Virus record (IMG/VR): IMGVR_UViG_2582581241_000004
Direction: 5' to 3' (one strand)
Origin: a virus
DNA: 47,094 nt
Shown here: positions 3,010 through 46,200 of the stretch, piece after piece
Layout: the number at the start of each line of letters is the position of its first letter
Position numbering within the stretch: position 1 is the first letter of the stretch
The notes under the pieces: generated by a model
Seen by the model: the letters and a program-made list of their open reading frames with translations, nothing else
What the model was told of the DNA's origin: nothing
Databases searched by the model: none
Made by a program: the position numbers and the translations under genes

Positions 3010-3057
3010 AAAAACCATTTTGAATTTTCGCACGCGTGATTCACCTGTCGAATCATG
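3010..3057 (+). promoter_or_regulatory. Repeated promoter-like motif, copy A, abutting the ruvC-like ATG
   Basis: AAAAACCATTTTGAATTTTCGCACGCGTGATTCACCTGTCGAATC-ATG; 41/48 identical to 36201-36248 and colinear with 9575-9619. Confidence 0.7.
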
Positions 3058-9318: not shown

Positions 9319-9575
9319 CGGAGGAACGCAAGGTCGTCGCGCTGCGGGGCGGACGGCAGGATACCGCAGGCGAGGTCGTCATATTCCTTCAGGATCTCCT
9401 GAAGCGGGCGCGCAACGGCGAGATCATCGGCCTCGTCGCAGGCGTCGTCTCGGGGGACGACGAGACGGTATCCTTCGAATGCGGATACGCCGCCGACGGA
9501 TGCTCTCTCGCCGATCTTGTCGTCGCCGCGAAGATGGCCGGAGACGACGTCTTCTCGGACATCGCGGACGCCTAA
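9315..9575 (+). CDS. Hypothetical protein
   Basis: ATGA overlap with the upstream stop; MTEERKVVALRGG... Confidence 0.6.
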   Translation: MTEERKVVALRGGRQDTAGEVVIFLQDLLKRARNGEIIGLVAGVVSGDDETVSFECGYAADGCSLADLVVAAKMAGDDVFSDIADA

Positions 9576-9619
9576 AAAATCGCTTTGCATTTTCACGGCG
9601 AGGATTCACCCGTTGATTC
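9575..9619 (+). promoter_or_regulatory. Repeated promoter-like motif, copy C
   Basis: AAAAATCGCTTTGCATTTTCACGGCGAGGATTCACCCGTTGATTC; same spacing as copies A and B. Confidence 0.65.
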
Positions 9620-30099: not shown

Positions 30100-31091
30100 T
30101 GGGTAACAAATCGTATCGTCTCGACGGCCTTTTCAGCCTGAAGTCGCCGCTTTCGCACATCAGCGAGACCGTCTCGAACTCGTCCTATCTCGTCCAGGAG
30201 CGCGTCATCCAGAATGACGGCAGCGTCGCCGACGTCTTCGTCTACAGCGGAAACGCCTGGCGCGGCCAGCTTCGCGACCTGATGGCCCGCGATCTCCTCG
30301 ACCGCCTCGGCGACGACAACGGCCCGGCGCGCGTCGGCCTGGACACGTTCTCGCTGCTGTTCTCCGGCGGACGCATCGGCGGCACGCAGACGACGGACAT
30401 CGGGCAGGCGCGTCGCCTGCGTTCCGCGCTGCCGTCGATCGCGCTGCTCGGCGGCGGCGTCGGCAATCAGCTTCTCGCCGGCAAGGCCCGCATCGGCAAC
30501 TGCTATCCGCTCTGCCGTGAAGCGTCGGGCATCCTTCCGGCGTCCTTGCGCGCCGACGCCGCCCTCGTCGAATACGCGGACTGCACGCAAAGCAAGGAGC
30601 ATTCGCGCCGCGACGACAAAAAGATCGAGACCATCAACGGCTATCTCTTGCCGGCGGCCGCGATCGAGGAGACGCCGAAGAAGGGGAAGAAAGCCAAGGC
30701 CGACGACGACGCGCCGGCGACCGACCAGATGAGGATCCGCATGGAGCTCCTCTCGCCGGGCGTCAGACTCCACACCTGGATCTCGATCGAGACGGCGACC
30801 GAGGAGGAGCTCGGCTGTCTCGTCGCCGCCCTGAAGCTCTTCTCCGACGCGCCGCACATCGGCGGGCAGTCCGCGAGAGGCTACGGGCTGGTGGACCTGG
30901 ACTACGCGCTGACCGACCGCACGACCGGCGCCGTCGTCGAGCATTTCGTGACCGTCGCCGACGGCGCCTGCATGCTTTCTCCGGAGGCCTCGGAGGCCCT
31001 GGCGGCCTACGGAAGCCATGTCGGCGCGCTGAAGGAAACCGCCATCGCGCCGAACGGCGGCGTCCTGGCTCTTCTGGAGGGCGCGGCGTGA
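30099..31091 (+). CDS. csf2: Type IV Cas7-family backbone Csf2
   Basis: SPLSH, SGNAWRGQLRD, LFSGG, LR..LP.IALLGG.VGNQ...GK, QM...E, IGG.SARGYG. Confidence 0.85.
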   Translation: MGNKSYRLDGLFSLKSPLSHISETVSNSSYLVQERVIQNDGSVADVFVYSGNAWRGQLRDLMARDLLDRLGDDNGPARVGLDTFSLLFSGGRIGGTQTTDIGQARRLRSALPSIALLGGGVGNQLLAGKARIGNCYPLCREASGILPASLRADAALVEYADCTQSKEHSRRDDKKIETINGYLLPAAAIEETPKKGKKAKADDDAPATDQMRIRMELLSPGVRLHTWISIETATEEELGCLVAALKLFSDAPHIGGQSARGYGLVDLDYALTDRTTGAVVEHFVTVADGACMLSPEASEALAAYGSHVGALKETAIAPNGGVLALLEGAA

Positions 31092-31672
31092 GCGTCTACA
31101 TCGCGAAAATCAACACGCCGCGCGGGCCGATCTCCTCGATCCATTGCGCGCTCTACGCCTGCCTGCCGCCAAGGCCGGAGGGAAGCAAGCGTCCCTTCGT
31201 CTGGCGCGTCGCCGACGGCGGACGTTCGATCGTGTTCGTCTCGTCGGAGATGCCGATCGTCCCGCATGCGACGATCTCGCTCGAGGCGGGGCGGTCCTAC
31301 GAGTTCGCCATCACTTATACGCGCGACAAGCACGTCGGAAAGAAGAAAGCCCGTCACCTCGTCGAGATCAACTCGATGCTCGATCTGCGTGATCGCATCT
31401 CGCATTTCGCCGGCTCCTACGGTGGAAGCGTCGGATTCGTGCGCCACGAACACATGCGGACCCTGCATGTGCGCCGGCAGAACGAGCATCTCGAAATGCC
31501 GATCGTGGACGCCTATGGGCGCGTCGTGGTCGAGGATCCCGTCGCGTTCGAGCAGGTCGTCCTCCAGGGCGGACCGGGCGGCGCCAAGGTCTACGGATGC
31601 GGCATGTGGTGGCTGCCGGAAATCATGGAGCCGGCTCTTTCGCCGGCGAAACTCGAAAGGATCGCCGCATGA
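31088..31672 (+). CDS. cas6: Cas6-like RAMP (Cas6e-type G-rich loop)
   Basis: H..LY, FVWR, G...V.DP..F..V...G.GGAKVYGCGM. Confidence 0.6.
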   Translation: MSVYIAKINTPRGPISSIHCALYACLPPRPEGSKRPFVWRVADGGRSIVFVSSEMPIVPHATISLEAGRSYEFAITYTRDKHVGKKKARHLVEINSMLDLRDRISHFAGSYGGSVGFVRHEHMRTLHVRRQNEHLEMPIVDAYGRVVVEDPVAFEQVVLQGGPGGAKVYGCGMWWLPEIMEPALSPAKLERIAA

Positions 31673-32310
31673 AACCGACTCTCATCCGAGCCGTCCTGGT
31701 CAACGGCTACATCACCAGCAACCCCTGGACGCCGACCATCGACGGCATCGTGGCCTACGCCTCGCAGCTTCGAAAGCACGGCGACGAGTTCTATGTCCAC
31801 CGCGATTCCGAAATGGTCCCGGTGGACGACCTGCCGATCGAGAAGGCCAAGTTCAACGGACGCTGGTGGTATTCGTGTTCGACGCCGACGCCCGTCGATT
31901 CCGTCGGACGCCAGAAGCGAAACTACCACCGCCGCTTCGACGACCAGTATGAGGGCTATCTCGTCTCGGGCGTCGGCAAGGTGCTGACCAAGGCCGGCCC
32001 CTACAAAGCGGCTCGCCTCGCCGACACGCGTACGATCTGCCGAGCCGTCGAGTGGCACGTCGTCGGCGACCGTGACGCGCTGCGGGATCTCCTTGGCGAC
32101 ATCGATCAGATCGGAGCCGCCCGCGCCGTCGGCTTCGGCTCCGTCGTCGAGTGGCAGTTCGAAGAGGGCGACGCCGAAATCGCAAGACGCCGGCGTCCGC
32201 TTCCGCTCGAATACGCGGAGAGCATCGGCATCGCAGGGCGCAGGATGTCGTGGGGCATCGTGCCGCCGTCGCGCCTGCCGGAGTCGATCTGCGAGTGCGT
32301 CATGCCGTGA
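31669..32310 (+). CDS. csf3: Type IV Cas5-family Csf3
   Basis: ATG 31669; IDGIVA, LP, WWYSCS, GPYK, W..VGD...LR.LL..I..IG..R..GFG.V..W, RRPLP. Confidence 0.82.
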   Translation: MKPTLIRAVLVNGYITSNPWTPTIDGIVAYASQLRKHGDEFYVHRDSEMVPVDDLPIEKAKFNGRWWYSCSTPTPVDSVGRQKRNYHRRFDDQYEGYLVSGVGKVLTKAGPYKAARLADTRTICRAVEWHVVGDRDALRDLLGDIDQIGAARAVGFGSVVEWQFEEGDAEIARRRRPLPLEYAESIGIAGRRMSWGIVPPSRLPESICECVMP

Positions 32311-32316
32311 ATCATG

Positions 32317-32356
32317 GCCGTCGCCGGGTTCCGACAGGGATTCGGCGACGGCTTTT
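32317..32356 (+). terminator. Intrinsic terminator closing the Cas operon
   Basis: GCCGTCGCCG...CGGCGACGGC perfect 10-bp outer stem followed by TTTT. Confidence 0.65.
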
Positions 32357-32378
32357 CGATGGCGGAACCGCATCCGCA

Positions 32379-32445
32379 TTAACCATTCGTTTCCCAATCC
32401 GCCTCTCGATTCCACACGCTGCGGTCGTATTAACACATCATTTCC
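32379..32445 (+). promoter_or_regulatory. Two CtrA-like boxes upstream of flagellin
   Basis: TTAACCATTCGTTTCC (32379) and TTAACACATCATTTCC (32430); CtrA consensus is TTAA-N7-TTAA, half-site TTAACCAT. Confidence 0.5.
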
Positions 32446-32495
32446 GCGCCGCTGATAATTGAAACGACACGGGTTTCCATAACGAAGTCGATTTC

Positions 32496-33593
32496 ATGTC
32501 CAGCGTTCTCACGAATTCATCCGCGATCACCGCGCTCCAGAACCTGCGCTCGACGCAGTCCGCCCTGGCGGACACACAGCACCGCGTCGCTACCGGCCTC
32601 AAGGTTTCCACCGCCGCCGACAACCCTTCGACATGGGCCGTCGCGGAAACGATGAAATCCGATCGAGGCGTGGTGTCGACGATCGCGGATTCGCTCGGGG
32701 TGAGTTCGCAGATTGTCGGCGTCGCGATGGCGGGCGTCGAAAGCACGATCTCGGTGATGAACCAGATCAAGAGCGCCATCGCACAAGCGGCACAGCCGGG
32801 AGCCGACAAGGCGAAGATTGCCACGAGCCTTGTCGGCCTGAGCGCGCAACTGCGATCGATTATTGCGTCCGCTTCGTTCAACGGAATAAACCTACTCGAC
32901 GGATCGCAGTCCTCGATCAGCTTCGCGTCCGGATACGTCGATGGGAATGGGTCGGGATCGGAACTGCGATCACTGGGCTTCACGCCTGCGGCGTTAGTAG
33001 AAAATAAAACGGCAATTGCATCCTTAAACGCAAGTAACATCACTGTAAACAATGCATATCAAGCTGGACTGCTATCCTCAAGCAACAAATCGGATATATT
33101 CGATTCTGGTAGTTCTTCGAATCTCGGGTGGATTCCAACCTATGGATTCGAGCCAAACGAGTCGATATTTCCAAATAGCCCTACATATTACGATACATAC
33201 TCCTATGATCTGGCCAATAATGTCATAAACGTAAACTACTATGCCAATTTCGCGGAGATATTTCCGGATTCGTCTGGTGGCTCCGGACTTGGAACCGTCT
33301 TGCTCAACCCTGTCATTGAAGGGAAAAGCCTCGATGTAGCCGATGCGGTTATTTCCCGCCTTACCGACTACGCCTCCACGCTCGGCTCGACAAAGACGAC
33401 CATCGACTCCCAGCGCGGCTTCATGCGGACCCTCGGCGACGCCATGGACCAGGGCATCGGCTCGCTGGTGGACGCCGACCTGAACGCGGAATCCACGCGA
33501 TTGCAGGCATTGCAGACGCAGCAGCAGCTAGGCGTCCAGTCGCTATCTATCGCCAACAGGGACGGCGACATCGTCCTGAAGCTGTTCCAGTGA
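32496..33593 (+). CDS. fliC: Flagellin (alphaproteobacterial type)
   Basis: MSSVLTNSSA..ALQ.L...TGLKV..A.DN, ASFNG.NLL, LVDADLN.ES.RLQALQ.QQQLG.Q.LSIAN. Confidence 0.93.
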   Translation: MSSVLTNSSAITALQNLRSTQSALADTQHRVATGLKVSTAADNPSTWAVAETMKSDRGVVSTIADSLGVSSQIVGVAMAGVESTISVMNQIKSAIAQAAQPGADKAKIATSLVGLSAQLRSIIASASFNGINLLDGSQSSISFASGYVDGNGSGSELRSLGFTPAALVENKTAIASLNASNITVNNAYQAGLLSSSNKSDIFDSGSSSNLGWIPTYGFEPNESIFPNSPTYYDTYSYDLANNVINVNYYANFAEIFPDSSGGSGLGTVLLNPVIEGKSLDVADAVISRLTDYASTLGSTKTTIDSQRGFMRTLGDAMDQGIGSLVDADLNAESTRLQALQTQQQLGVQSLSIANRDGDIVLKLFQ

Positions 33594-33923
33594 TTATGTC
33601 CGTCCGCCTCGGATGGTCTCGGCCATTCTTCCGAACGCCAATTTCCTGATCATCAAATATCGGGGAGCCGCCTCGTCCGATCCCATGCCAACGACGGCCA
33701 CTGCGACGAAAGCGAATCCCGCCGGCAGGAGGATCAACGCGCTCCACAGACGGTCGGCAGGCGTCGGCTCGACCCGATATCCGCGATCGCGAGGCGCTTC
33801 CGGAGCCAGCAACAGCGAACTGACGTAGTTCGGCCAGATCGCCATCGGAACGACCGCAAGGCTGTAACTGACCGCGACGACGACCGAGAACACGATGTCG
33901 TCGATCCATTTGATGACGTTCAT
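33594..33923 (-). CDS. Membrane protein
   Basis: Two hydrophobic helices; convergent with flagellin. Confidence 0.55.
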   Translation of the reverse strand: MNVIKWIDDIVFSVVVAVSYSLAVVPMAIWPNYVSSLLLAPEAPRDRGYRVEPTPADRLWSALILLPAGFAFVAVAVVGMGSDEAAPRYLMIRKLAFGRMAETIRGGRT

Positions 33924-34237
33924 TTTATCTCGTTCTTCAGGCCTTTTATGCGCCGGTCGACTTCGGCTGCGAACGCGTCCTCAATGATCGCCACGATCTC
34001 CTCGGGTGTCCGTCCAGCTCCTGCGGCCGCGATGCAGGCGTCCGTTGCGCGATGGACGACCAACGAACATTCCGATTCGATGTAGATCAGTCTGGACGCC
34101 GCCATGTGCCACCGCATCGCGATCCGGACGAGTTCCTCGATCTCAGGTCTCGGCGCCTTCCGCAGGGCGTGGCGGGCGGCTTCGGTCTTCGAAATATCAC
34201 TATCGCGGGGAATTCCGAACAATTCGTGGTCTTTCAA
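33920..34237 (-). CDS. Hypothetical protein
   Basis: Overlapping stop/start with neighbour. Confidence 0.5.
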   Translation of the reverse strand: MKDHELFGIPRDSDISKTEAARHALRKAPRPEIEELVRIAMRWHMAASRLIYIESECSLVVHRATDACIAAAGAGRTPEEIVAIIEDAFAAEVDRRIKGLKNEIK

Positions 34238-34336
34238 GGGATTTGGTGAAAACAGCGCGCCTCCTTAGCCCCGCGCAAGCCGATCGTCAACGCGGTCCAG
34301 TTTCTGCTTCGTTTCCGACGGTGCGGAAAACGGAAG

Positions 34337-34597
34337 TCAGGCCGTCCCCGCCCGCGCCGCCATGTCCGCCAGGGCGACGCCGACATCCTGGACGAAATCC
34401 GCCACGCCGGGATGGCTCTTCGCGAGCTCCCTCGCCTTGGTGTCCCGCTGCGCCGGCGACAGGCTGGCGTCGCGAAAGATATTTTCCATATCAATGACGA
34501 ACACTGCGGATGGAATCGAGATCCGATGCAACGGCACATGGAATTCCGATGACGGAAACAGCCGCGTCAGCGCGATGATTTCACTGGGTCTGAGCAT
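34337..34597 (-). CDS. Hypothetical protein
   Basis: AAGGAG RBS. Confidence 0.55.
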   Translation of the reverse strand: MLRPSEIIALTRLFPSSEFHVPLHRISIPSAVFVIDMENIFRDASLSPAQRDTKARELAKSHPGVADFVQDVGVALADMAARAGTA

Positions 34598-34940
34598 AGT
34601 CGGTCTCCTTCGATGCCGATGTCTTGGATTTTCGGCGTTCTTCCCGCCGATAGCTTTCGAGCTCCAATTGAAGGCACTCGATCTGCGCCTTCATGGCTTT
34701 CAGCACATCGTCGTGCAGATCCGAAATTCCTTCGCGCAGCGCAGCCATCTTCTCGCGAAGATCGACGCTGGATTCGCGATCGAGGAGCGTTTTGATGACG
34801 TGGATCGCTTGCAGGCACGGAACCGCGACGAAACGCCGGTCAAAACTCGCTTCCGCCGCAATCTCGAGTTCCTCGAGCAGACGCTCGGCCTCGATCGGCG
34901 TCTCGTCGACATGCATGTGAAATTCCGCCAGCCTGTCCAT
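34581..34940 (-). CDS. Hypothetical coiled-coil protein
   Basis: AAGGAG RBS. Confidence 0.55.
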   Translation of the reverse strand: MDRLAEFHMHVDETPIEAERLLEELEIAAEASFDRRFVAVPCLQAIHVIKTLLDRESSVDLREKMAALREGISDLHDDVLKAMKAQIECLQLELESYRREERRKSKTSASKETDYAQTQ

Positions 34941-34952
34941 TGCCGGACTCCT

Positions 34953-35504
34953 TCAGATCACATCCGACCAAAGCAGATCGACGACTTCGTTGAAGTCGAG
35001 CGGCTGGACGATCAACACATTCCGCTCCTGCCAGTCCTTCGCACCGCCGCAGAAATATTCGCCGCTGGCGACGCAATAGGCGATAGGTGTCGATCCGACG
35101 ACCTCGCCGTTTTCCGTCACTTCCTTCCAATATTCGGTGCGGAAACACAGATTGCCGCCGAAGAGGAACAGCCCCGGCCGGCAGGCCTCCAGCGAGACGG
35201 GGCCGCGCGGCGCCTCGTCTTCATCGTCGTCGCCATCGACCGGAGCCGCGTCGACCTCATGAACGACGGTAGCCTGGAAGCCGTTGAAGGCTTGAAAATC
35301 GGACGATCGATCGAACGGGTCGGAATTATGGTCGCTAAAAACCCGCGCGATCTCGATTTCGGCGTTGTCTTCGAGGCCGAGCTGCTTCCGCAATTGACGT
35401 TCGATGATCGCCTCGATGTCCTGCACCGAGACGCGGAACACGGCTTCCCGGCGCGTCTTGGTCGTGGTGATGTCCTTCTTCGTCTCGAATGGAATCTTGC
35501 TCAT
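34953..35504 (-). CDS. Hypothetical protein
   Basis: GAGGGG RBS; acidic linker; PGLF.F...TEY, SGEYF.GG. Confidence 0.6.
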   Translation of the reverse strand: MSKIPFETKKDITTTKTRREAVFRVSVQDIEAIIERQLRKQLGLEDNAEIEIARVFSDHNSDPFDRSSDFQAFNGFQATVVHEVDAAPVDGDDDEDEAPRGPVSLEACRPGLFLFGGNLCFRTEYWKEVTENGEVVGSTPIAYCVASGEYFCGGAKDWQERNVLIVQPLDFNEVVDLLWSDVI

Positions 35505-35510
35505 CGCCCC

Positions 35511-36107
35511 TCACTCCGTTTCGACATCCCAGAATTTCCCGGCGCGCACGATTGCCTCGTCGTTCCCGGCATCGGTATTGTCGTGCGGTTCATCGAGCCA
35601 CGCCGCCAGCGTCCAGCCATCGGCTTCCCACATGAAGACGTCGCACCATCCGCCGTTATCGACGCTGTAGAAAAGACTCCAACCCTTGCGCGGGCGGACT
35701 TTGCCCTTCTCCTTCCGTCCCTCGAAAAGCACTGGATACCAGCCCGATTTCGAAGGCGATTTCGTCGGCGGCTGCTCTTCGCGCGGCCACTGGAAAACCT
35801 TGTCGATCAGGTGATCCCCGATCCTGGACGCCACGTCGCAATGCGCCCGATCGACTCCATATGTCGTCACATGCTCGCCGTGCGGCGCCGGATCGTCGCC
35901 GACGCGCCGGGCGTAGATGATCACTTGGTCGTAGCCGTAGTCGTCGGCGATGCGCTTCGCGGCGGAGATCGGAATTCGCTTCATTTTACGTGGCTGCGAC
36001 ATTGGAGTGTCGTTCCTCTTTGGCTTTTGACGCTTGCGTTCCCGATCGGGAACATTTTCCGGCAAACGAGCGATCTCGGATGAAAGCTTCCCGATCGGGA
36101 ACGTCAT
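35511..36107 (-). CDS. Hypothetical protein (start 36107 or 36002)
   Basis: IPISAAKRIA..YGYDQV.I.AR...EHVTTYG...HC. Confidence 0.6.
   Translation of the reverse strand: MTFPIGKLSSEIARLPENVPDRERKRQKPKRNDTPMSQPRKMKRIPISAAKRIADDYGYDQVIIYARRVGDDPAPHGEHVTTYGVDRAHCDVASRIGDHLIDKVFQWPREEQPPTKSPSKSGWYPVLFEGRKEKGKVRPRKGWSLFYSVDNGGWCDVFMWEADGWTLAAWLDEPHDNTDAGNDEAIVRAGKFWDVETE
36038..36102. repeat. Pair of 16-bp palindromes
   Basis: GTTCCCGATCGGGAAC (36038-36053) and CTTCCCGATCGGGAAC (36087-36102). Confidence 0.7.
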
Positions 36108-36200
36108 GCCGACTCCTTCGACGACCATTGAATCGAGCGATGAATTCAAAGTGATTTGCCGTCAAGAAGCCTTCAGGCCGGGGAGCGATAGCGGCGGTAA

Positions 36201-36248
36201 AAAAATCGCTTTGAATTTTCACGCGCATAATTCACCTGTCGAATCATG
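36201..36248 (+). promoter_or_regulatory. Repeated promoter-like motif, copy B, abutting the tnpB ATG
   Basis: 41/48 identical to 3010-3057, including ATTCACCTGTCGAATCATG. Confidence 0.7.
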
Positions 36249-37439
36249 ATCAAGCGCGGCTTCCGATACCGGCTCGACCCGACCGACGAACAGGAACTCA
36301 TGTTCCGGAAGTTCGCGGGCGTCTGCCGCGCCGTCTACAATGCCGCGCTCCATCAACGCGAAGTATTCTGGCGGCAGCATCTTCGGACGGAAGGAAGGCA
36401 CGTTTCCTACGTCGGACAGGCTGCGGAACTGACCGCGCTTCGCGCCGAGTTCGACTGGATCAGGGAAGTCTCCCAAGCCTGCGAGCAGCAGGCGCTGCGC
36501 GACCTCGACAATGCGTTCCAGCGGTTCTTCGACGGCGTTTCCGGCTATCCGACCCCGCGCCGGAAGGGCAAGAACGACGGTTTCCGCTTCCAAGGACGCA
36601 ATGTCGAAGTCGAGAAGCTCAATCGCAATTGGAGCCGGGTGAAGCTTCCGAAGATCGGATGGGTGCGCTTCCGCGACACACGACCAATGGTCGGGAAGCT
36701 GAAGAACGTCACCGTCTCTCTCGACTCGCTCGGATGGCACGTCTCCTTCGCCCGCGAGATCGAGCATGAAGCTCCGGCGAATATCGCGCCCGCAGTCGGC
36801 ATCGATAGAGGAGTCGCCAATTCCATCGCCATGTCGACCGGCGAAATGGATTCGATCGGCAAGGAGCGGCTCGCCGTCCTCGACCGGCGTCGCAGGAAGC
36901 ACCAGCGCGATCTGTCCCGGCGCAAGCGCGGATCGCAGCGCTACGGCAAGACCCGCAAGCGGGTCGCCGCCGTCGCCGCCAAGGGGGCTCGCGTCCGCGA
37001 GCATTTCAACCATGTCCGGACGACGCGCATCGTGCGGAACTTCGGCACGGTCTGCATCGAGGATCTGAACATCGCGAACATGACGGCGTCCGCGAAGGGC
37101 ACGGTCGAAGAACCGGGAAAGAACGTCGCGCAAAAGGCGGGACTGAACCGCTCCATCCTCGAGCAGGGTTGGGGTCAATTCGAGGAATTCCTCACCTACA
37201 AGCTCGCCGCTTCCGGCGGCGTGCTGGTGAAGGTCGATCCGCGCAACACTTCGCGGAAATGCTCCAACTGTGGCCATATCGACGCTCGCAATCGCGAAAG
37301 CCAAGCATCGTTCCGATGCGTCGAATGCGGACACGAGGCTCATGCCGACGTGAATGCGGCCATCAACATTCTTCAGGCCGGAACGCGGCCTTCGGAAGAG
37401 GCGAAAGCCCCACGCCGAAAATCTCGGAAGGCCGCCTAG
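36246..37439 (+). CDS. tnpB: TnpB RNA-guided nuclease, catalytic D-E-D intact
   Basis: YRLDP...G.CR.VYN; GIDRG (RuvC-I D), IEDL (II E), TS..CS.CG/C..CG Zn finger, ADVNAAINI (III D). Confidence 0.93.
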   Translation: MIKRGFRYRLDPTDEQELMFRKFAGVCRAVYNAALHQREVFWRQHLRTEGRHVSYVGQAAELTALRAEFDWIREVSQACEQQALRDLDNAFQRFFDGVSGYPTPRRKGKNDGFRFQGRNVEVEKLNRNWSRVKLPKIGWVRFRDTRPMVGKLKNVTVSLDSLGWHVSFAREIEHEAPANIAPAVGIDRGVANSIAMSTGEMDSIGKERLAVLDRRRRKHQRDLSRRKRGSQRYGKTRKRVAAVAAKGARVREHFNHVRTTRIVRNFGTVCIEDLNIANMTASAKGTVEEPGKNVAQKAGLNRSILEQGWGQFEEFLTYKLAASGGVLVKVDPRNTSRKCSNCGHIDARNRESQASFRCVECGHEAHADVNAAINILQAGTRPSEEAKAPRRKSRKAA

Positions 37440-37496
37440 GCCTTTCGCATAAATCTCCGAAAGGGGAAGACGTTATCACAACGATTCCTTGGACAA
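37375..37496 (+). ncRNA. Putative omegaRNA (reRNA) overlapping the tnpB 3' end, plus downstream guide
   Basis: GCGGCCTTC (37385)/GAAGGCCGC (37427) pairing; GGC-GAAA-GCC (37400); TCTCC-GAAA-GGGGA (37454); position typical for TnpB RNAs; limits uncertain. Confidence 0.5.
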
Positions 37497-37715
37497 CCGC
37501 TCCACGATCCGCTCCATCGCGGCCGCCGCGCCAGGATTCAACGACAGCATTCCGCGAACAAGGAACTGCCTTTGAGCCGGATCCGCCTTCGACGTTTCGT
37601 TGATCCTCGAAACGAGATCGCCGGCGAGAACGTCATCGCGCCGATCTCCTCGAAGGCCGCCAGACTGCTCGATCACGGCGGCCCACTCGATGGCTTCCAG
37701 CGCGGACAGGGACAT
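37476..37715 (-). CDS. Hypothetical protein
   Basis: TGATG coupling with the upstream gene. Confidence 0.55.
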   Translation of the reverse strand: MSLSALEAIEWAAVIEQSGGLRGDRRDDVLAGDLVSRINETSKADPAQRQFLVRGMLSLNPGAAAAMERIVERLSKESL

Positions 37716-37963
37716 CAGGACTTTCCTCTGTCCTGCGCCAGCTTCATCTCCTCAAGACGCTGCAACTCCATTTCAAAGACCCGGCGAAGGAGTTCATTTT
37801 CCTGGAGTGTTTTTCCGCCGCCTTCCTTGTCCACAAGCCTGCCACGATCCGCAAGCAGGAAGGCCAGCAGCTTCTCCTGATACTCGATGGCATCCTTGCT
37901 CGGACGACGACCTTTGACCGGAGAACGAGCGGCGGCACGCCGCATCTTTCTTTCGAGAGACAT
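37715..37963 (-). CDS. Hypothetical protein
   Basis: Downstream of promoter-like motif copy D. Confidence 0.55.
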   Translation of the reverse strand: MSLERKMRRAAARSPVKGRRPSKDAIEYQEKLLAFLLADRGRLVDKEGGGKTLQENELLRRVFEMELQRLEEMKLAQDRGKS

Positions 37964-38010
37964 TATTGAATTCCCCGTGCTTGTCGTCGGCAGCGTGTTC
38001 GCCGACCTTC

Positions 38011-38046
38011 AAATCAATGGGTGAATCCAAGCTCGGTAAAAATCAA
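38011..38046 (-). promoter_or_regulatory. Divergent copy D of the promoter-like motif
   Basis: Minus strand TTGATTTTTACCGAGCTTGGATTCACCCATTGATTT; one base longer than copies A-C. Confidence 0.45.
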
Positions 38047-38086
38047 TGGTGCGAAAGATCTTTCTGAAACGCATCGAATCCTAGGA

Positions 38087-38133
38087 TTATTCACTATACG
38101 AAATATCGGGCGTTTATTTCGTATAGCGAATAA
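38087..38133. repeat. AT-rich inverted repeat, 19-bp arms and 9-nt spacer
   Basis: TTATTCACTATACGAAATA-TCGGGCGTT-TATTTCGTATAGCGAATAA (18/19 complementary). Confidence 0.75.
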
Positions 38134-38157
38134 AATCCCGATACGAAGACAAGGCCG

Positions 38158-40662
38158 TCATCGACGGCGCCGCTTCTGCGGCTTTTCATATTGATTCCGC
38201 TTTACGCCCATAGCCGCGTCCATTTCGGCCATTTCCGCAGGAGACGCAGTGCCTCCCCACCACGCCAGAAACTTCAGTGCGCGCGCGTCGCCTTCCGGAT
38301 CTGGACAATTTGCCGTCGGAATCTTCGAAGCCGTTTTTGGAAGACGATCATTCGTGCCGTCCGATGAATTTGAATTTGGATTCTCGATCGCAGGAACGTC
38401 CTTCGAGTCCTGTGCCGTCACATGGACAATCCCAATTTCATCATCACGAATTGCCGTCTCCGAGGATGTTTCGACAGATGTGGCGATGGAAATCGTTGAA
38501 GGCGGAATCGACGGTTCAATTCGTGAAGACGATTGGCCGAATCTTCCAAAACGTGAAGGACGACTCTTGTGAATGACGGAGCAATTCGAAGCGGATTCCT
38601 CGGACGAAGAAATATCGATCGATGCAGGAATTATCCCGTCTCCATTCTCGCCGTCATCCACACCAATGATCGTCTCCGGAACGATGGATGTCGTCGATGA
38701 CGGAATCGACTTTGCAGGGGACGACGACCGGTCAATCCTTCTTCCGAACCGTCGCGGATTCCCTTTCACGTCGATGATCTTTGAGACATTCGCATCGACC
38801 TCGCCGAGAGATTCCCCACCGACGGTCTTCGAAATAGCCACGCTTTCCACGGTCTTTTCACCGTCGTTCTCGACCGAGATTCCAGCCGTGATTGACGTCT
38901 TCACCAATCCGCCCCGCAGACGCGCCAATTGACGTCCCAAATCGGACTTGCGATGTGCGAAATCCGCAGTGTCATTCACGGCCTGAATCTCCAATTCATC
39001 AACGCAGTCGTCTTCCATCCACCACGACGGAATATCCACACCATCCTCATTCGAGTTATCGTCCCAAGCCGGCAGGGACGGAATGACGATGTCGGATGCG
39101 ACGACTCTTTCGATGCTCTGATGTTCGATCTTCGTTTCGTCTTCCATCTTCCCCCTGCGAATTCCTTCTCCATTCCGGGGATCTATAGACCTTCGTTTAT
39201 CGCGAGAGGCGCAATCGTCTTTTGTTTGTTGGGGAGTCGACCTCTCGTTCATGTATTTATAAGCGGTCGGCTTGCTGACTCTGGCCTCGCGAGCGATGGA
39301 TGCAGCCGAGACTTCCTTCCCGGCTTCTCGAAGTCTCGAGATCGCGGCAAGAACGGCGTTGCGGGCGGTCGCCGCTCTGCATTCTGCGGAATATTGGGCT
39401 CCGACAGCCTGACGTTCCGCGACCGTCTTCAATCCCTTGACGCGATCCCGGCACGCTCCCCTGTCGCGCCCGTTCGCGGAGCAGCGATCGGGATCCCATC
39501 GCCCGGCGGCATAGAGCGCCACGCGACGGATCATTTTCATGAGACGCTTTTGCTCGGACTTCTTTTGAAACATATGTCCGATTTCGGCGGTGCATTTCGC
39601 CTCGAGGATGTCCGCCAGCGCTTCCGTGTCGCCGATCGCGTCGAGATATTCCGGATCGCAGGCGTGGTGCATCATTCTCAGGGAGTCGAAGGCGATGCGC
39701 TGCGCCGCACAGAAGGCCGCGTTAGAGTCGTTTTTGTCCAATCCCGAACCCAGCGCCGCAGCGTCCCTGGCGAGATCCCCATACCGACGTCCGGTGTCGA
39801 CGCACTCGGCCCATTCCGTCAGATCGGGAAACGCCGTCCCGTTCCAGATTTCCCTGGTCCAGTGTGAACTGAGCGGGCTCTTGCCCTTTCCTTCATTTGC
39901 GATCGCGCTGATGTCCGCGCCGAGGTGCAGCAGCGCCGCGGTGCATCCGCGCACTACGCCGTCGAACAGCGCCATGATGCGCTTGTTGCAGCGCTCGTCG
40001 TCGGGGTCGTACCAGACCTGCGAGCCGTACGGTAAAAGCCACCAAAGATGCGGACGCCGCAGGGTTCCGTCATGCTCGACATGACCGACCGGTATGTGCG
40101 GCAGACACGGCAGATCGCCTCGATCGACGACCTTCTGAAGCTCGTAGCGCAGGTAGGCCATCGACGGGAAATCCATGTCGAGATCGACCCGCCAGCCGTG
40201 TCTCATCAGCCGCGTCAGTTCGATGACCGGCATGTCGAGAGCCAGCAATTTGCTGTCTGCCAGCGGCAGGAATCCCTTTTCATAGCCGGCATGCAAAGAA
40301 TTCGCGATGCGCTTTTCGATGAGTTCGTTGGTCTCGTCGCCGAAGCGTTCATGCGTCCGACCGTGGTAGACGCGGGGGGTCGCCGCGATGAAACGCCTGA
40401 GGACGTGCTCTTCCTCCGACGCCAGTCCGACCTCATGAAACGGTTCGATGAAATAGGCGCCGACCATCCCGCCCGGCCATACGAAGCCGGTTTCGAGACG
40501 CTGCTTTACGAGATCCATTCTCGACTGATGACGCTCGATCGACGCCTTCGCGAGCTCGGAGACTTCCGCCGTGGTGATCTTGCGCTTTCGACGCCTCAGC
40601 TCGCTTCGAACGCCGCGCATGGCGGCATAGTCGGAGTCGAATTTGTCGATGCTGACGTCCAT
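38158..40662 (-). CDS. ColE2-type (AEP superfamily) replicase with HTH and long low-complexity tail
   Basis: RVDLDMD, PH...GH...PHLWWLL, L.GAD, KSPLS.HW, then SAASIAREARVSKPTAYKY HTH; acidic/Ser-rich C-terminal third. Confidence 0.65.
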   Translation of the reverse strand: MDVSIDKFDSDYAAMRGVRSELRRRKRKITTAEVSELAKASIERHQSRMDLVKQRLETGFVWPGGMVGAYFIEPFHEVGLASEEEHVLRRFIAATPRVYHGRTHERFGDETNELIEKRIANSLHAGYEKGFLPLADSKLLALDMPVIELTRLMRHGWRVDLDMDFPSMAYLRYELQKVVDRGDLPCLPHIPVGHVEHDGTLRRPHLWWLLPYGSQVWYDPDDERCNKRIMALFDGVVRGCTAALLHLGADISAIANEGKGKSPLSSHWTREIWNGTAFPDLTEWAECVDTGRRYGDLARDAAALGSGLDKNDSNAAFCAAQRIAFDSLRMMHHACDPEYLDAIGDTEALADILEAKCTAEIGHMFQKKSEQKRLMKMIRRVALYAAGRWDPDRCSANGRDRGACRDRVKGLKTVAERQAVGAQYSAECRAATARNAVLAAISRLREAGKEVSAASIAREARVSKPTAYKYMNERSTPQQTKDDCASRDKRRSIDPRNGEGIRRGKMEDETKIEHQSIERVVASDIVIPSLPAWDDNSNEDGVDIPSWWMEDDCVDELEIQAVNDTADFAHRKSDLGRQLARLRGGLVKTSITAGISVENDGEKTVESVAISKTVGGESLGEVDANVSKIIDVKGNPRRFGRRIDRSSSPAKSIPSSTTSIVPETIIGVDDGENGDGIIPASIDISSSEESASNCSVIHKSRPSRFGRFGQSSSRIEPSIPPSTISIATSVETSSETAIRDDEIGIVHVTAQDSKDVPAIENPNSNSSDGTNDRLPKTASKIPTANCPDPEGDARALKFLAWWGGTASPAEMAEMDAAMGVKRNQYEKPQKRRRR

Positions 40663-40671
40663 CAGGAACTC

Positions 40672-40714
40672 GAAACAAAACGAGCGCCGAGAGGCCCCAC
40701 TCCTCTCGGCGCTC
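40672..40714 (-). terminator. Terminator-like hairpin in the replicase leader
   Basis: Perfect 13-bp stem GAGCGCCGAGAGG/CCTCTCGGCGCTC followed on the minus strand by GTTTTGTTTC, about 20 nt before the ATG. Confidence 0.6.
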
Positions 40715-41099
40715 TGAACCGTGCGCGACTTGCGCCTGCGCGACGGATTCTAGAATTCCGTTTCGATGCACGTGGGGCATGCACCACCCGAAGATGGCGC
40801 CGCCTCCCGCATGCCGCAATAGGTATTCAATGGAGATATCAATGTGTTAAGCGCAGCGTCGCTTTCGGACACCCGCGTAAAACAGACTCTTTCGCGCCTT
40901 CAGATGCAACTACGCATCGAGAGTCGAAAAATCACTGTCGCGTCGTCATCGACACATGGAGGCTATCCTGGACATGTTTGCGAGGCATCGAAAATGATGA
41001 CGTCGCGAGACGGCTGGAAAACTTTTTGAAAATATTTTTTCGAGGGCCGTCGAAAAATGGGGTCGAAGCGCCTTTTTGGACGAGATCGACCCCGAGGCA

Positions 41100-41446
41100 T
41101 CACGGACACCGCAGGAAATCGTGCTCGGCGCCGCCGTTCACGCGCAGCGATATCCAGTCGCGGTCTCCGTCGTTGTAGCTGCGAGCCGTCACAGTTGCGT
41201 TCGAGAGACTCGCCCCGAACGCCCGGTCGCATATGCCTTTCCATGTCACCGTCTCGCCGGAGCGACTCACCGAATTGAACCGGCATTTCAATTCCGGTGA
41301 AGAGATCTCCATCCGCCCGATGGACATCGCCGCGAATTCGCAGGCTTCCCCGTCGGAACCCCATTTGCCGACGATGGATTTCGCGGCCTCCGTTGGAGTG
41401 GACACGACGGCCAGCGCAGCGACCCCTCATTTAATCGTTTTTTCCA
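41100..41446 (-). pseudogene. Paralogue of 41902-42294 with an in-frame TGA in its leader (or a shorter GTG-started gene)
   Basis: LEKTIK*GVAALAVVSTPTEAAKSIVGKWGSDGEAC...; mature part closely matches the paralogue. Confidence 0.5.
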
Positions 41447-41569
41447 AGGCCGTAATCCTGGTGTCGGTGTATGAAAGGATATCGCACGAAGTGTCTTGAT
41501 TTATGCCGTATTGCGATTCCGCCCGTCTCCCACTAAAATCAACTGACTCCATTATGTCGGTGGCGGGAA

Positions 41570-41899
41570 ATGGGAATCGGTGAAACGATATTCTGGTATG
41601 CGGTCGGCGGAATTGTCGTTCTTGCAATCGCATGCTCGATAATCAACTCCATTTACGAATGGTATCAGCGCGACGTCAATAAAAAGTGTCCTGCATGCGG
41701 GGAATCCGGCGTCTTCGAGCAGGTCTCGGACGTCCTCAAAAACAAGCGCAGAACCAGTAGGAGGATTTTGCGAATGGAGGGGGCGGACAGGTATTACGAA
41801 AACGAATACACTACGACGGAATATTGGGAATCGACATACAGATGCTCAGCATGTGGGCATGAGGCCGTCTATGAGCACACGGATTCGTATCGGTCCTGA
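41570..41899 (+). CDS. Membrane-anchored zinc-ribbon protein
   Basis: N-terminal TM helix; CPACG...CSACGH. Confidence 0.6.
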   Translation: MGIGETIFWYAVGGIVVLAIACSIINSIYEWYQRDVNKKCPACGESGVFEQVSDVLKNKRRTSRRILRMEGADRYYENEYTTTEYWESTYRCSACGHEAVYEHTDSYRS

Positions 41900-41901
41900 A
41901 T

Positions 41902-42294
41902 TCACCGACACCGCACATAATCCCTCTCGACACCTCCATTGATCCGCAAACCAATCCGCTCATAATCGCCGTCGTTGTAGCTCCGAGCCGTCACGGTGGC
42001 GTCAGCGACTCGTGAACCAAAAGCCCGGTCGCACGAACCGCGCCACGTCACCGTCTCACCGGATCGGGAAACCGACGTGAAATGGCATCTCAACTCCGGC
42101 GACGAAATCTCCATCCGTCCGATGTTCGTCGCCGCGAATCCGCAGGCCTCCCCATCAGATCCCCAGCGTCCGACAATCGATTTGGCAGCGAATGCCGGTG
42201 TAGAAGCGATGACCAGCATGCATAGAATTTTCTCCATCGACGCCTTCCGTAATCGTTTTACCATTTTGGACCCCCAAAATAATCGTTTTTCCAT
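41902..42294 (-). CDS. Small secreted Cys-containing protein (start possibly at internal MEKILC)
   Basis: Signal-like MEKILCMLVIASTPAFA; four Cys in the mature part. Confidence 0.6.
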   Translation of the reverse strand: MEKRLFWGSKMVKRLRKASMEKILCMLVIASTPAFAAKSIVGRWGSDGEACGFAATNIGRMEISSPELRCHFTSVSRSGETVTWRGSCDRAFGSRVADATVTARSYNDGDYERIGLRINGGVERDYVRCR

Positions 42295-42343
42295 GGCCGT
42301 AAGCGTTTTTCCATATTTCAGACCGGCATGTAATAGGCTCCAA

Positions 42344-43036
42344 TCAGTCGCTATTCGGCGCCACGATGGCGATGATCGCGAGTTCTTCAGCGCTGCGCGT
42401 CATCCGATTGACCAGAAGTTCATCGAATTCCGGCGCGTCCGATGCGATGCAATCCAGCGCGCGCTGACTGAAATCGACGGGATAGAACCCCTCCGACAGC
42501 CATGCATAAGACGTGTTCGCATCGAGCCCGATCCGTCGCAGTTGAGAGCGATATAGGTCGAGCTGGTCCAGCGTCGGCGTCCGCCACCCGATCCCCGTGC
42601 CCCACCAGTTCCGAGCGATGAATTTTGCGACCTCCGCCGCCGGCTCCCGCATCGTCAGCCGCAATCCGGCGAACGTTTGCTGCCGGCACCACGTCCCGCA
42701 GATCTGGTGTTCGATCAGCGACCATTTGAATCCCGGCGCCAGGACCGGGACGAGATGAGGGAACACCAGAAACGCGGTCGGCGTCATGATGTCGTGCGCG
42801 TTCGGCTGGGCATTCACCCATTCCTTTGCGTCGTTGGCATCGATTTGGGATCGGCGCGAATATTCGAGCAGGACATCGCGCCCGTTGTCTCCGATCCATT
42901 CGCAGACGGGGTGATCGCTCGAATGCGAGAAGACGGATTCGGGGAGCATACGAAGTGGGAGAACGCCGTTCGGCATTCCCTTCTCCGCGCGGAATGGCCC
43001 GAGAATCTGCTCGATGTCGTCGTGCTCGATCGTCAT
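42344..43036 (-). CDS. Hypothetical protein
   Basis: GGAGG RBS; HQ.CG..C, EG.YP, NSD end. Confidence 0.6.
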   Translation of the reverse strand: MTIEHDDIEQILGPFRAEKGMPNGVLPLRMLPESVFSHSSDHPVCEWIGDNGRDVLLEYSRRSQIDANDAKEWVNAQPNAHDIMTPTAFLVFPHLVPVLAPGFKWSLIEHQICGTWCRQQTFAGLRLTMREPAAEVAKFIARNWWGTGIGWRTPTLDQLDLYRSQLRRIGLDANTSYAWLSEGFYPVDFSQRALDCIASDAPEFDELLVNRMTRSAEELAIIAIVAPNSD

Positions 43037-43800
43037 GCGTCTACCTCCACGACAAGCATGCCGAACTCCGTGTTTTCAGGCAGTCCTCGAAATGAGTGAG
43101 GCCCGTAGCCTTTCGGATTGCAGATCACACGCGTCTCGCCAACACGATAGTCGAACGACGAATGCATGTGGCCGTGAATCCAAAGCGCCGGTCGATATTT
43201 CTCGATCAGCCATGTGAGATCGCTAGCGAACGCCGGCGTCAAAGGATCATTCGTGAACTGCGGAGCCACCGAGTCTGGATGCGGCGCATGGTGCGTCACA
43301 ACGACCGTCGGACCGTCGAATCGCTCCTTCAGCCGCGCCTCTAAAAAGCACAGGTCGATGACGTGCAGTTCGTGCGCTAGCGTCGGCGTGAACCCATTGA
43401 TCAAGCGATGATCGTTGAGCCATCTGCCGGCCTCCGCCATCGCCTCGTCGCGCCGTCCGAACAGATCGTAGTTCGTCCAAAGCGTCGCCCCGAGGAATCG
43501 CACGCCGTTGATGACGACGCGACCTCGGTCCAGTAGATGGACATTCGTGCCCTTCGCCGCCTCGGCGCCGGCGAAGACTCGCGCCTGGATCGAGCCGCCG
43601 TAGAACTCGTGGTTGCCAGCGACGTAGACGACCGCCGCCGGGAAGAACTCCATCTTCGCCCACTCCACAGCGGAATTCGGTGGAGAATGGATATCGCCGG
43701 CCAGGACGACGACATCGTGCGGCGGGAGGTTCTCCGGCATGGACCATTGGTATCCGTGCTCGATGTGGAGGTCGGATAGAACAAGGATTTTCACAGACAC
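43033..43800 (-). CDS. Calcineurin-like metallophosphoesterase
   Basis: SDLH, LAGDI, GNHE, THHAP, HGH.H, NP.GY. Confidence 0.9.
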   Translation of the reverse strand: MSVKILVLSDLHIEHGYQWSMPENLPPHDVVVLAGDIHSPPNSAVEWAKMEFFPAAVVYVAGNHEFYGGSIQARVFAGAEAAKGTNVHLLDRGRVVINGVRFLGATLWTNYDLFGRRDEAMAEAGRWLNDHRLINGFTPTLAHELHVIDLCFLEARLKERFDGPTVVVTHHAPHPDSVAPQFTNDPLTPAFASDLTWLIEKYRPALWIHGHMHSSFDYRVGETRVICNPKGYGPHSFRGLPENTEFGMLVVEVDA

Positions 43801-44018
43801 TTTCCCTCCACGATTTCGAGTGCCTGCCGAGCGAGAATTCTCCGCTCGGCGACGGCTTGGGCGGCTCGGTCGGTGCCGGCGAGTGAATACAGATATTCCT
43901 CGCGGTCACCGAGCGGCAGCAGTCGATAGACCCGCTCCATCGCGGCGTCCGACGTGATTGCACCGGCGCGCCAGCTTCTGGCGACGTTGTCGATTGAGTT
44001 TCCGAAGATCCTCTGCAT
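43791..44018 (-). CDS. Hypothetical protein
   Basis: GGAGG RBS; TGATG coupling. Confidence 0.55.
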   Translation of the reverse strand: MQRIFGNSIDNVARSWRAGAITSDAAMERVYRLLPLGDREEYLYSLAGTDRAAQAVAERRILARQALEIVEGKCL

Positions 44019-46060: not shown

Positions 46061-46108
46061 ATACTCCGGATTTGCCAGGCATTTCCGCGGCTGGACCCTA
46101 AAATTTTA

Positions 46109-46139: not shown

Positions 46140-46200
46140 CAGCCGGGGGCTATCCCGGAGGACGCTTTGAGGATGCACGTATCGGATTCATCGATGAAAG

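What the first reader, a model, noticed from the sequence alone, without database searches (positions are those of the whole stretch)
36161..37476. TnpB that looks domesticated: phage promoter motif, eroded IS ends, intact nuclease
Seen: the 45 nt before the tnpB ATG plus the ATG are 41/48 identical to the same region of the ruvC-like gene; there is no tnpA; D-E-D residues are intact. The left-end-like sequence has the GGCCGGGG arm but lacks most of its complementary 5' arm. The right-end stem is a short GAAA-tetraloop hairpin. Inference, based partly on recalled IS200/IS605 end patterns: the element can no longer be mobilised by TnpA but is expressed in the phage programme, for example as an RNA-guided homing or competitor-cutting nuclease.
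Basis: partly seen in the sequence, partly recalled or inferred. Interest (0 to 1): 0.7.

Follow-up and report, generated by a model that had tools for sequence, protein, structure and literature searches.

The report
Stranded TnpB rewired to phage promoter
A jumping-gene remnant inside a 121-kb dormant virus has lost its transposase and its end hairpins, but keeps an intact RNA-guided nuclease (TnpB) and guide-RNA scaffold behind the virus's own promoter-like signal. It may therefore now spread or compete like a phage homing endonuclease, though its expression and cutting are untested.

Summary
Window 36163-37475 is an IS605-derived unit with an intact 397-aa TnpB: RuvC residues D187/E272/D368 and the zinc finger are present. 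It has no tnpA, a collapsed left-end hairpin and a right-end hairpin cut down to 5 bp plus a GAAA loop.

The 45 nt before the ATG belong to a motif with seven strict copies in the 5.1-Mb genome. All seven lie in one 121-kb tailed prophage at tRNA-His. Each is followed by a same-strand gene, and four abut an ATG.

All three tnpB paralogs of the genome lie in this prophage and carry the motif in the same register. They represent two lineages that are only 47% identical. Their nearest outside relatives (58-71% aa) carry ordinary -10 boxes there instead, and the two closest still have tnpA.

Copy 1 and copy 2 give dN/dS 0.21, and the guide-RNA scaffold shows compensatory changes. Expression, TAM and cleavage are untested. 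No empty-site allele was found.

Best reading (about 0.45): an immobilised TnpB-omegaRNA module expressed in the phage programme and persisting by TnpA-independent homing between co-infecting phages. This is a new variant of a known kind. The scan has noted similar phage-wired solo TnpBs on other DNA, for example e1-5525350 and e1-136442.

The parts
36125..36165 (-). Looser, differently spaced copy of the promoter-like motif. It faces the leftward gene 35511-36107, whose AAGGAG ribosome site lies 6 nt before its ATG.
   Evidence: The spacing between the boxes is 3 nt shorter than in the strict copies, so this assignment is weak.
36163..36200 (+). Left-end remnant. It comprises 5 nt shared with copy 2, a 3-nt relic of the 5' arm, the TTCA loop, the 3' arm GGCCGGGG (36176-36183), and about 17 nt that resemble the last codons of tnpA in full-length relatives.
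   Evidence: Homology with copy 2 starts at 36163-36171.
36201..36245 (+). Prophage-private promoter-like motif. It has an A-run, a TTGAAT box, 13 nt, an ATTCAC box, and then GTCGAATC directly abutting the ATG.
36246..37439 (+). tnpB, 397 aa, with an intact RuvC D-E-D triad and zinc finger.
37226..37475 (+). Predicted omegaRNA scaffold. It covers the last ~210 nt of tnpB plus the right end.
   Evidence: Alignment A4 and its consensus fold: 57 pairs, 21 with compensatory changes. Synonymous divergence is lower here than at the 5' end.
37454..37467 (+). Truncated right-end hairpin, a 5-bp stem with a GAAA loop. The conserved terminus that follows ends at 37475.
37476..37495 (+). Predicted guide segment, that is the flank read into the omegaRNA. 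It is the antisense of the last codons of the convergent gene 37476-37715.
   Evidence: Position inferred from the IS200/IS605 rule that the guide follows the right end. No second target exists in the genome.
3010..3054 (+). Motif copy abutting the ATG of the RuvC-like resolvase gene 3055-3624.
9575..9619 (+). Motif copy 46 nt upstream of a 102-aa gene.

Best explanation
Window 36163-37475 descends from a full IS605-type element (left end, divergent tnpA, tnpB, right end) that landed in an accessory slot of a 121-kb tailed prophage. Nearly all of tnpA, together with the native sigma70-type tnpB promoter, was later replaced by one copy of a promoter-like motif used only by this prophage. The ATG sits directly behind that motif, which suggests a leaderless or near-leaderless mRNA. 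The DNA hairpins that a TnpA would need have decayed, so the element cannot transpose. TnpB and the overlapping omegaRNA scaffold are still kept by selection. Inferred mechanism: during phage transcription, TnpB loaded with an omegaRNA whose guide reads the right flank cuts related co-infecting phage genomes that lack the insert. Repair from the insert-bearing genome then copies the module and its neighbours. This is TnpA-independent, 'non-restorative' homing, as practised by free-standing phage homing endonucleases. Shown here: ancestry, loss of tnpA, promoter swap, hairpin decay, and conservation of the protein and the RNA. Inferred only: promoter activity and direction, omegaRNA production, cleavage, and homing.
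For: All seven strict motif copies lie inside the prophage C9:931524-1052546, and none lies in the other 5.0 Mb. All seven precede a same-strand gene by 0-46 nt, and four abut an ATG. All three tnpB genes of the genome lie in this prophage and carry the motif in the same register. Copy 3 is only 47% identical to copy 1 and lies outside the clade of copy 1's relatives. Relatives of both lineages lack the motif. Where an ATG start is read (L013, L050, L056/L061, L060, L066) they carry canonical -10 boxes 6-7 nt before the ATG; L041 has a tRNA-Val gene there and no ATG. The closest outside relatives, at 70-71% aa, have a divergent tnpA 20 nt upstream, and the window keeps about 17 nt of a tnpA 3' end. 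Hairpin energies are -2.8 (left) and -1.6 (right) kcal/mol in the window, against -11.4 and -11.8 for the left ends of relatives. dN/dS between copies 1 and 2 is 0.21 at dS 0.26. The omegaRNA fold has 21 covarying pairs, and the window copy keeps every helix except the apex of the last one. The related prophage remnant at tRNA-Thr lacks the element in the allelic slot, so presence varies among kin. TnpA-independent homing into co-infecting phages or plasmids is an already proposed mode (PMC13565253). A cyanophage tnpB is induced during infection (10.64898/2026.02.14.705889).
Against: The TAM is unknown, and the left flank that would carry it is eroded. No insert-free allele with a matching target was found. 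The homologous site in the remnant prophage differs at 3 of the first 16 guide positions. The motif's forward -10 region is non-canonical, while its reverse complement reads as TCGACA, 16 nt, GAAAAT. Purifying selection since the split of copies 1 and 2 could predate immobilisation. Two 90%-identical copies in one phage imply that the promoter-bearing element did move, or was recombined, at least once.
Confidence: 0.45

Rival explanations
1. This is an ordinary stranded IS remnant. A non-autonomous IS605 derivative sits in a permissive, insertion-prone slot of the prophage and is slowly decaying. The phage-type promoter arose by recombination among the dispersed motif copies and has no consequence beyond residual selfish expression. 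TnpB currently does nothing useful for itself or for the phage.
For: The same slot in the remnant prophage holds a different transposon, an rve-type DDE transposase with an AAA_25 ATPase. The prophage also carries an IS630-family element. Solo tnpB genes with degraded ends are very common: more than 5000 homologs were found at E<=1e-40. There is no evidence of expression or of a target.
Against: dN/dS is 0.21 over dS 0.26, with no stop codon or frameshift in any of the three copies. The omegaRNA helices are retained. The right-end hairpin was remodelled into a stable tetraloop stem rather than simply deleted. The promoter swap happened in two unrelated tnpB lineages in the same register.
Confidence: 0.27
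2. This is a phage weapon in the strict sense, truly domesticated. The phage uses TnpB-omegaRNA to destroy competing related phages or other mobile elements that carry the guide-matching site. The benefit goes to the phage rather than to the insert.
For: The evidence is the same as for the best explanation. In addition, one 121-kb phage carries three differently guided TnpBs, all under its own motif, in a genome region rich in defence and counter-defence genes (unverified leads only).
Against: Each guide is simply the flank of its own insertion, as in any IS, and was not retargeted. No matching target was found anywhere. This reading cannot be separated from selfish homing in silico.
Confidence: 0.13
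3. The motif is mainly a leftward or bidirectional sigma70 promoter. It feeds the divergent neighbour genes, for example 35511-36107, which the insertion cut off from their operon. Its abutment to the tnpB ATG is incidental.
For: The reverse complement reads TCGACA, 16 nt, GAAAAT, and the GAAAAT box is invariant in all seven copies. Five of the seven copies have a divergent gene starting 41-152 nt upstream. In the remnant prophage the leftward genes form one uninterrupted run apart from a transposon insertion.
Against: Two of the seven copies have no divergent gene, whereas all seven have a same-strand gene within 46 nt and four share an exact ATG abutment. Leftward genes at 2858 and 37963 have their own motif-like copies in leftward orientation.
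Confidence: 0.1
4. This is a TldR-like RNA-guided repressor linked to the phage flagellin gene at 32496-33593. It would silence the host flagellin as in the FliCP-TldR prophages.
For: A phage flagellin gene lies 2.6 kb upstream. TldRs are TnpB derivatives found in prophages (10.1101/2023.11.30.569447).
Against: The catalytic triad and zinc finger are intact. The gene is not adjacent to the flagellin gene; six leftward genes lie between them. No guide of any of the three copies matches within 2 mismatches over 12 nt near the host flagellin genes at C8:248-250.6 kb, nor within 1 mismatch over 16 nt anywhere else in the genome.
Confidence: 0.03

Closest known systems
Full-length IS605-type elements in metagenomic contigs (loci L056-L059, L061, L062; TnpB 70-71% identical)
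   Same: They share the TnpB clade, the right-end terminus, the TTCA-looped hairpin type and the omegaRNA scaffold. The tnpB start also lies close behind the promoter.
   Different: They keep a 139-140-aa Y1 transposase 20 nt upstream, good hairpins, about 27 nt of left end outside the hairpin, and a canonical -10 box. One of them occurs at two or more different sites. The window copy has none of these.
ISDra2 TnpB-omegaRNA (OMEGA system; PDB 8bf8, 8exa, 8h1j)
   Same: Homology is full-length (E 6e-38). The catalytic D-E-D triad and zinc finger are shared, and the guide RNA is encoded over the 3' end of the gene and the right end.
   Different: ISDra2 has tnpA and functional ends and relies on TnpA excision for restorative homing (prior knowledge; see also PMC13565253). 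Here there is no tnpA, the ends are decayed and the promoter is of phage type. The protein also has a ~15-aa insertion after E272.
IS1341-group (tnpB-only) elements, such as the solo relatives L060 and L013
   Same: There is no tnpA, and a short hairpin-to-ATG spacer holds the promoter.
   Different: Those relatives keep perfect 8-bp left hairpins (-11.4 and -11.8 kcal/mol) and sigma70-type -10 boxes. The window copy has neither.
Free-standing homing endonucleases of T-even phages (SegF, SegB, Mob), and 'transposon non-restorative homing' as set out in PMC13565253
   Same: The proposed way of working is the same: a nuclease gene wedged between conserved phage genes, present or absent among kin, expressed by the phage, cutting the insert-free competitor and spreading by repair.
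   Different: Recognition would be RNA-guided rather than protein-based. Neither cleavage nor biased inheritance has been shown here.
TldR (TnpB-like nuclease-dead repressors) of FliCP prophages (10.1101/2023.11.30.569447; PMC13418256)
   Same: It is a TnpB derivative fixed in a prophage that also encodes a flagellin.
   Different: TldRs have lost the RuvC active site and carry guides against host promoters. Here the active site is intact and no host target exists.
tnpB of cyanophage A-1(L) (10.64898/2026.02.14.705889)
   Same: It is a phage-borne tnpB whose transcription rises during infection and whose function is open.
   Different: That copy is identical to five host IS copies, so it is a recent, still mobile acquisition. 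The copies here have no chromosomal counterpart and carry a phage-type upstream signal.

Membership tests
TnpB (IS200/IS605-family RNA-guided nuclease, OMEGA) | Domain architecture HTH_OrfB_IS605 + OrfB_IS605 + zinc-ribbon TNB domain | tested here: met
   All three Pfam families score above their cut-offs. Alignment to ISDra2 TnpB is full-length.
TnpB (IS200/IS605-family RNA-guided nuclease, OMEGA) | RuvC catalytic D-E-D triad and CxxC...CxxC zinc finger | tested here: met
   D187, E272 and D368 align to D191, E278 and D361 of ISDra2 TnpB. Four cysteines are present.
TnpB (IS200/IS605-family RNA-guided nuclease, OMEGA) | Conserved structured RNA (omegaRNA) spanning the 3' end of the gene and the right end | tested here: met
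   A seven-sequence alignment gives 57 pairs, 21 with compensatory changes. The window keeps all helices except the apex of the last. Transcription of this RNA was not tested.
TnpB (IS200/IS605-family RNA-guided nuclease, OMEGA) | TAM-dependent RNA-guided DNA cleavage | not testable with these tools
   This needs a biochemical or plasmid-interference assay. The TAM could not be derived because the left flank is eroded.
Autonomous IS605 element | Adjacent Y1 (HUH) transposase gene tnpA | tested here: not met
   No Y1_Tnp match occurs in the window. The single genomic match is on contig C10 and is unrelated to these ends.
Autonomous IS605 element | Subterminal left-end and right-end DNA hairpins recognised by TnpA | tested here: not met
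   The left end folds at -2.8 kcal/mol (z +0.75) and the right end at -1.6 kcal/mol, against -11.4 and -11.8 for the left ends of relatives.
Autonomous IS605 element | Several near-identical copies at different sites, a sign of recent mobility | tested here: not met
   Only one other copy exists, at 90% identity and in the same prophage. There is none in the chromosome. The nearest sequence elsewhere among 5.8 billion proteins is 71% identical.
IS1341-group non-autonomous element (mobilisable in trans) | tnpB only, but with intact left and right ends | tested here: not met
   tnpB-only is met. Intact ends are not met.
TldR (nuclease-dead TnpB-derived repressor) | Loss of RuvC catalytic residues, often with C-terminal truncation | tested here: not met
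   The triad and the zinc finger are intact, and the protein is full length at 397 aa.
TldR (nuclease-dead TnpB-derived repressor) | Guide complementary to a host promoter such as fliC | tested here: not met
   No match was found near the host flagellin genes or elsewhere in the genome.
Phage homing-endonuclease-like element (functional class, not a sequence family) | Presence/absence polymorphism between related phages at the same slot | tested here: inconclusive
   The one related element, the remnant prophage at tRNA-Thr, lacks it but carries other DNA there. No clean empty site was found.
Phage homing-endonuclease-like element (functional class, not a sequence family) | Cleavage of the insert-free allele and biased inheritance in mixed infection | not testable with these tools
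   This needs phage crosses.

The most novel reading that the evidence does not exclude
TnpB-omegaRNA modules have repeatedly been turned into phage-programmed, TnpA-independent RNA-guided homing endonucleases. In this one prophage, two unrelated tnpB lineages independently exchanged their sigma70 promoters for the phage's private promoter in the same leaderless register. They shed tnpA and the TnpA hairpins while keeping the nuclease and the guide scaffold. If so, this would be an RNA-guided gene drive acting between co-infecting phages.
Probability: 0.35. Interest if true: 0.7.

Novelty: new variant of a known kind. Interest (0 to 1): 0.5.

Why it matters
TnpB is the ancestor of Cas12. How it escapes dependence on its transposase is central to understanding how RNA-guided nucleases were recruited for new roles. 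Known exits are CRISPR effectors and nuclease-dead TldR repressors. A third exit, catalytically active and TnpA-free homing between phages, has been proposed, but clear natural examples are scarce.

This locus offers a compact, testable case. It has three active-looking TnpBs in one inducible-looking prophage, each behind the same phage signal. The ancestral state (tnpA, hairpins, sigma70 promoter) can be read from relatives. It also shows which parts of the right end are needed for the RNA (the stem base and the terminus are kept) and which for TnpA (the stem apex and TTCA loop are lost).

Tried and rejected
- **Rfam.** No family matched the omegaRNA region; the best hits had E >= 0.058, all far below the gathering scores.
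- **Empty-site alleles.**
  - 400 genomes of the same family gave only short hits to part of the left neighbour gene.
  - A 5.8-billion-protein search with that neighbour found no close ortholog other than the in-genome paralog.
- **The motif in IMG/VR.** There were no exact pattern matches, so the promoter class could not be shown in other phages.
- **Phage record search.** No related element was found in 50,697 phage records.
- **TldR/flagellin idea.** It was rejected because the active site is intact and there are no guide matches.
- **Motif as part of the native IS.** This was rejected because relatives of both tnpB lineages lack it.
- **The C10 Y1-domain gene as the cognate TnpA.** This was rejected because no end-like sequences occur there.
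- **Phage hallmark searches.** Phage_sheath_1 and TerL_nuclease (Pfam) missed the prophage. PHROGs then found terminase, portal, sheath and baseplate genes.
- **TAM.** It could not be derived. Relatives share a TCATC-like word about 20 nt outside the left hairpin, but neither copy in this prophage retains that segment.

Full report
**What is at the coordinates**

The only coding frame with gene-like codon-position GC at 36161-37476 is 36246-37439 (+), 397 aa. It carries the three Pfam domains of TnpB. It aligns over its full length with ISDra2 TnpB (8bf8/8h1j, E 6e-38). D187, E272 and D368 sit on the catalytic D191, E278 and D361, and both CxxC pairs are present.

A third copy at 9575 scores 37/48, and background in the window is 24-26/48. 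The gene behind the 3010 copy is a RuvC-like resolvase (PHROG 159).

**Genomic setting**

The window is C9:1005257-1052350 of a 5.1-Mb genome. Earlier scan notes call the host a methane-oxidising alphaproteobacterium. I did not test this.

A 56-bp direct repeat at C9:931524 and at the 3' part of tRNA-His (1052491) delimits a 121-kb prophage. The prophage has an integrase at its left end, and genes for large terminase, portal, tail sheath, tape measure and baseplate. The window is its right 47 kb. That part holds replication, nucleotide-metabolism and accessory genes.

A second, partial element at tRNA-Thr (C9:890.6-908.3 kb) is 80-91% identical to window 30453-46150.

**The element and its copies**

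The genome has three tnpB genes, and all are in this prophage:
- the window copy;
- copy 2 at C9:938926-940221 (-), 90% nt and 89% aa identical;
- copy 3 at C9:969489-970694 (+), 47% aa identical.

Homology between copies 1 and 2 runs from window 36163/36171 to 37475. This defines the unit.

Copy 2 has similar hairpins with a TTCA loop at both ends. In the window copy the left 5' arm is missing apart from 3 nt. At the right end, the apical 16 nt of the hairpin are replaced by 7 nt, leaving a 5-bp stem with a GAAA loop.

| End, folded as DNA | Energy (kcal/mol) |
|---|---|
| Window left end | -2.8 (no better than shuffles) |
| Copy 2 left end | -2.8 |
| Window right end | -1.6 |
| Copy 2 right end | -5.7 |
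| Left ends of two relatives (perfect 8 bp) | -11.4 and -11.8 |

The end core sequences occur nowhere else in the genome. The only Y1-transposase-like gene is on another contig, without such ends.

**Ancestral state**

Among 5.8 billion proteins, the nearest sequences outside this genome are 71% identical. Two of them (70-71%) were retrieved with their DNA. They are complete IS605-type elements with a 139-140-aa Y1 transposase gene diverging 20 nt upstream of tnpB. One of them sits at two or more different sites.

In these elements the left hairpin overlaps the end of tnpA, and about 27 nt of left end lie outside the hairpin. Neither prophage copy keeps that outer segment. After its hairpin arm, the window keeps about 17 nt that resemble the last tnpA codons. 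The phage motif then begins. So about 400 nt, covering tnpA and the native promoter, were replaced.

**The upstream motif**

A mismatch search, a weight matrix and a gapped pattern each find the same seven strict copies. All are within C9:940-1041 kb, which is 2.4% of the genome. Nothing comparable occurs elsewhere.

All seven have a same-strand gene starting 0-46 nt downstream. Four abut an ATG directly: the three tnpB genes and the resolvase gene.

Relatives of copy 1 (58-71% aa: L013, L050, L056/L061, L060, L041) and the nearest relative of copy 3 (Rhodovastum, 69%) all lack the motif. Apart from L041, where a tRNA-Val gene replaces the 5' region and no ATG is present, they have canonical -10 boxes (TATATT, TATATG, TAAGAT, TACAAT) 6-7 nt before the ATG.

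Copy 3 falls outside the clade formed by copy 1 and its motif-less relatives. The presence of the motif therefore follows residence in this phage, not tnpB ancestry. At least two swaps or conversions occurred, each preserving the leaderless geometry.

Caveat: the forward -10 position reads ACCTGT, while the reverse complement reads as a fair sigma70 promoter. The direction is therefore inferred from gene arrangement, and from leftward genes that have their own leftward motif-like copies. It has not been shown.

**Selection**

Copies 1 and 2 differ at dS 0.26 and dN 0.056, giving dN/dS 0.21. Synonymous divergence is threefold lower in the last third of the gene, which overlaps the predicted omegaRNA.

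An alignment of the last ~250 nt from seven relatives folds into 57 pairs, 21 of them with compensatory changes. The window copy keeps every helix. In the terminal hairpin it keeps only the basal 5 pairs plus the conserved 9-nt terminus.

L041, on a viral contig, likewise keeps the stem base and terminus but not the apex. My inference is that the base and terminus serve the RNA, while the apex and loop serve TnpA.

**Targets**

The predicted guides, meaning the first 16-24 nt beyond each right end, match only their own flanks in the genome. The homologous site in the remnant prophage differs at 3 of 16 positions. None lies near the host flagellin genes.

The allelic slot in the remnant holds a 92-aa gene, and the neighbour gene's start has been split off by a DDE transposon. 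The slot is therefore insertion-prone and variable. No clean empty site was found in 400 family genomes or through the neighbour protein.

**Interpretation**

The facts fit an IS605 derivative that can no longer transpose. Its nuclease-guide module is maintained and is placed under a phage-private signal.

The most economical mechanism is TnpA-independent ('non-restorative') homing between co-infecting related phages. This concept has been set out, with plasmid evidence, in PMC13565253. It parallels the free-standing homing endonucleases of T-even phages. It needs no benefit to the phage, so 'domesticated' is stronger than the data allow.

The rivals are inert decay, a true anti-competitor weapon, a mainly leftward promoter, and a TldR-like repressor. 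They are weighed in their own sections of this report.

Phage-borne tnpB with infection-induced transcription has been reported (10.64898/2026.02.14.705889). This scan has also noted similar phage-wired solo TnpBs on other DNA. The kind is therefore known. The features specific to this case are the triple occurrence in one prophage, the two independent promoter swaps in one register, and a readable ancestral state.

Noticed in passing
G000 C9:890629-908271 (partly in loci L005 and L063): A second, partial prophage-like element lies next to tRNA-Thr. It is 80-91% identical to window 30453-46150 and includes its own flagellin gene, 55% aa identical to the window's. The start of its homolog of gene 35511-36107 has been split off by a 4.7-kb insertion that encodes an rve-type DDE transposase, an AAA_25 ATPase and a SEC-C/TPR protein.
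   Followed up: partly
L002 reverse strand, about 40-150 nt left of copy 2's left end (C9 ~940260-940370): There are three or four direct repeats of a GTCGGAAAA-type word at roughly 20-nt spacing, which look like iterons. Their function is unknown.
   Followed up: no
L041:2906-3001 (Hyphomicrobium MAG contig, also IMG/VR UViG_3300014205_005089): A 68%-identical tnpB on a viral contig starts about 20 nt after a tRNA-Val gene. It has no ATG at the aligned start and no left end, while its right-end terminus is conserved. It may be co-transcribed with the tRNA or may be a 5'-truncated copy.
   Followed up: partly
window 36201-36245, minus strand: The reverse complement of the phage motif reads as a sigma70-type promoter (TCGACA, 16 nt, GAAAAT). 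The GAAAAT box is invariant in all seven copies, so the motif may be bidirectional.
   Followed up: partly
window 36219-37343 (-): A 374-aa open frame runs antisense across tnpB. Its codon-position GC is not gene-like, so it is probably a by-product of high G+C. A cyanophage preprint (10.64898/2026.02.14.705889) reports peptides from a comparable antisense frame.
   Followed up: no
window 16029-17003 (-): An IS630-family DDE_3 transposase gene lies inside the prophage. A 71-nt stretch at 16014-16084 is 96% identical to a site on contig C1, so this IS family also occurs elsewhere in the genome.
   Followed up: no
L056:2540-2570 and L061:110-140: In the full-length relatives, the TTCA loop of the left-end hairpin is the reverse complement of the tnpA stop codon, so the hairpin encodes the last residues of TnpA.
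   Followed up: no
L064:2398-2400 (copy 2 right end): The convergent 285-aa gene next to copy 2 ends with a stop codon formed by the last three bases of the IS right end. This suggests the insertion replaced that gene's original 3' end.
   Followed up: no
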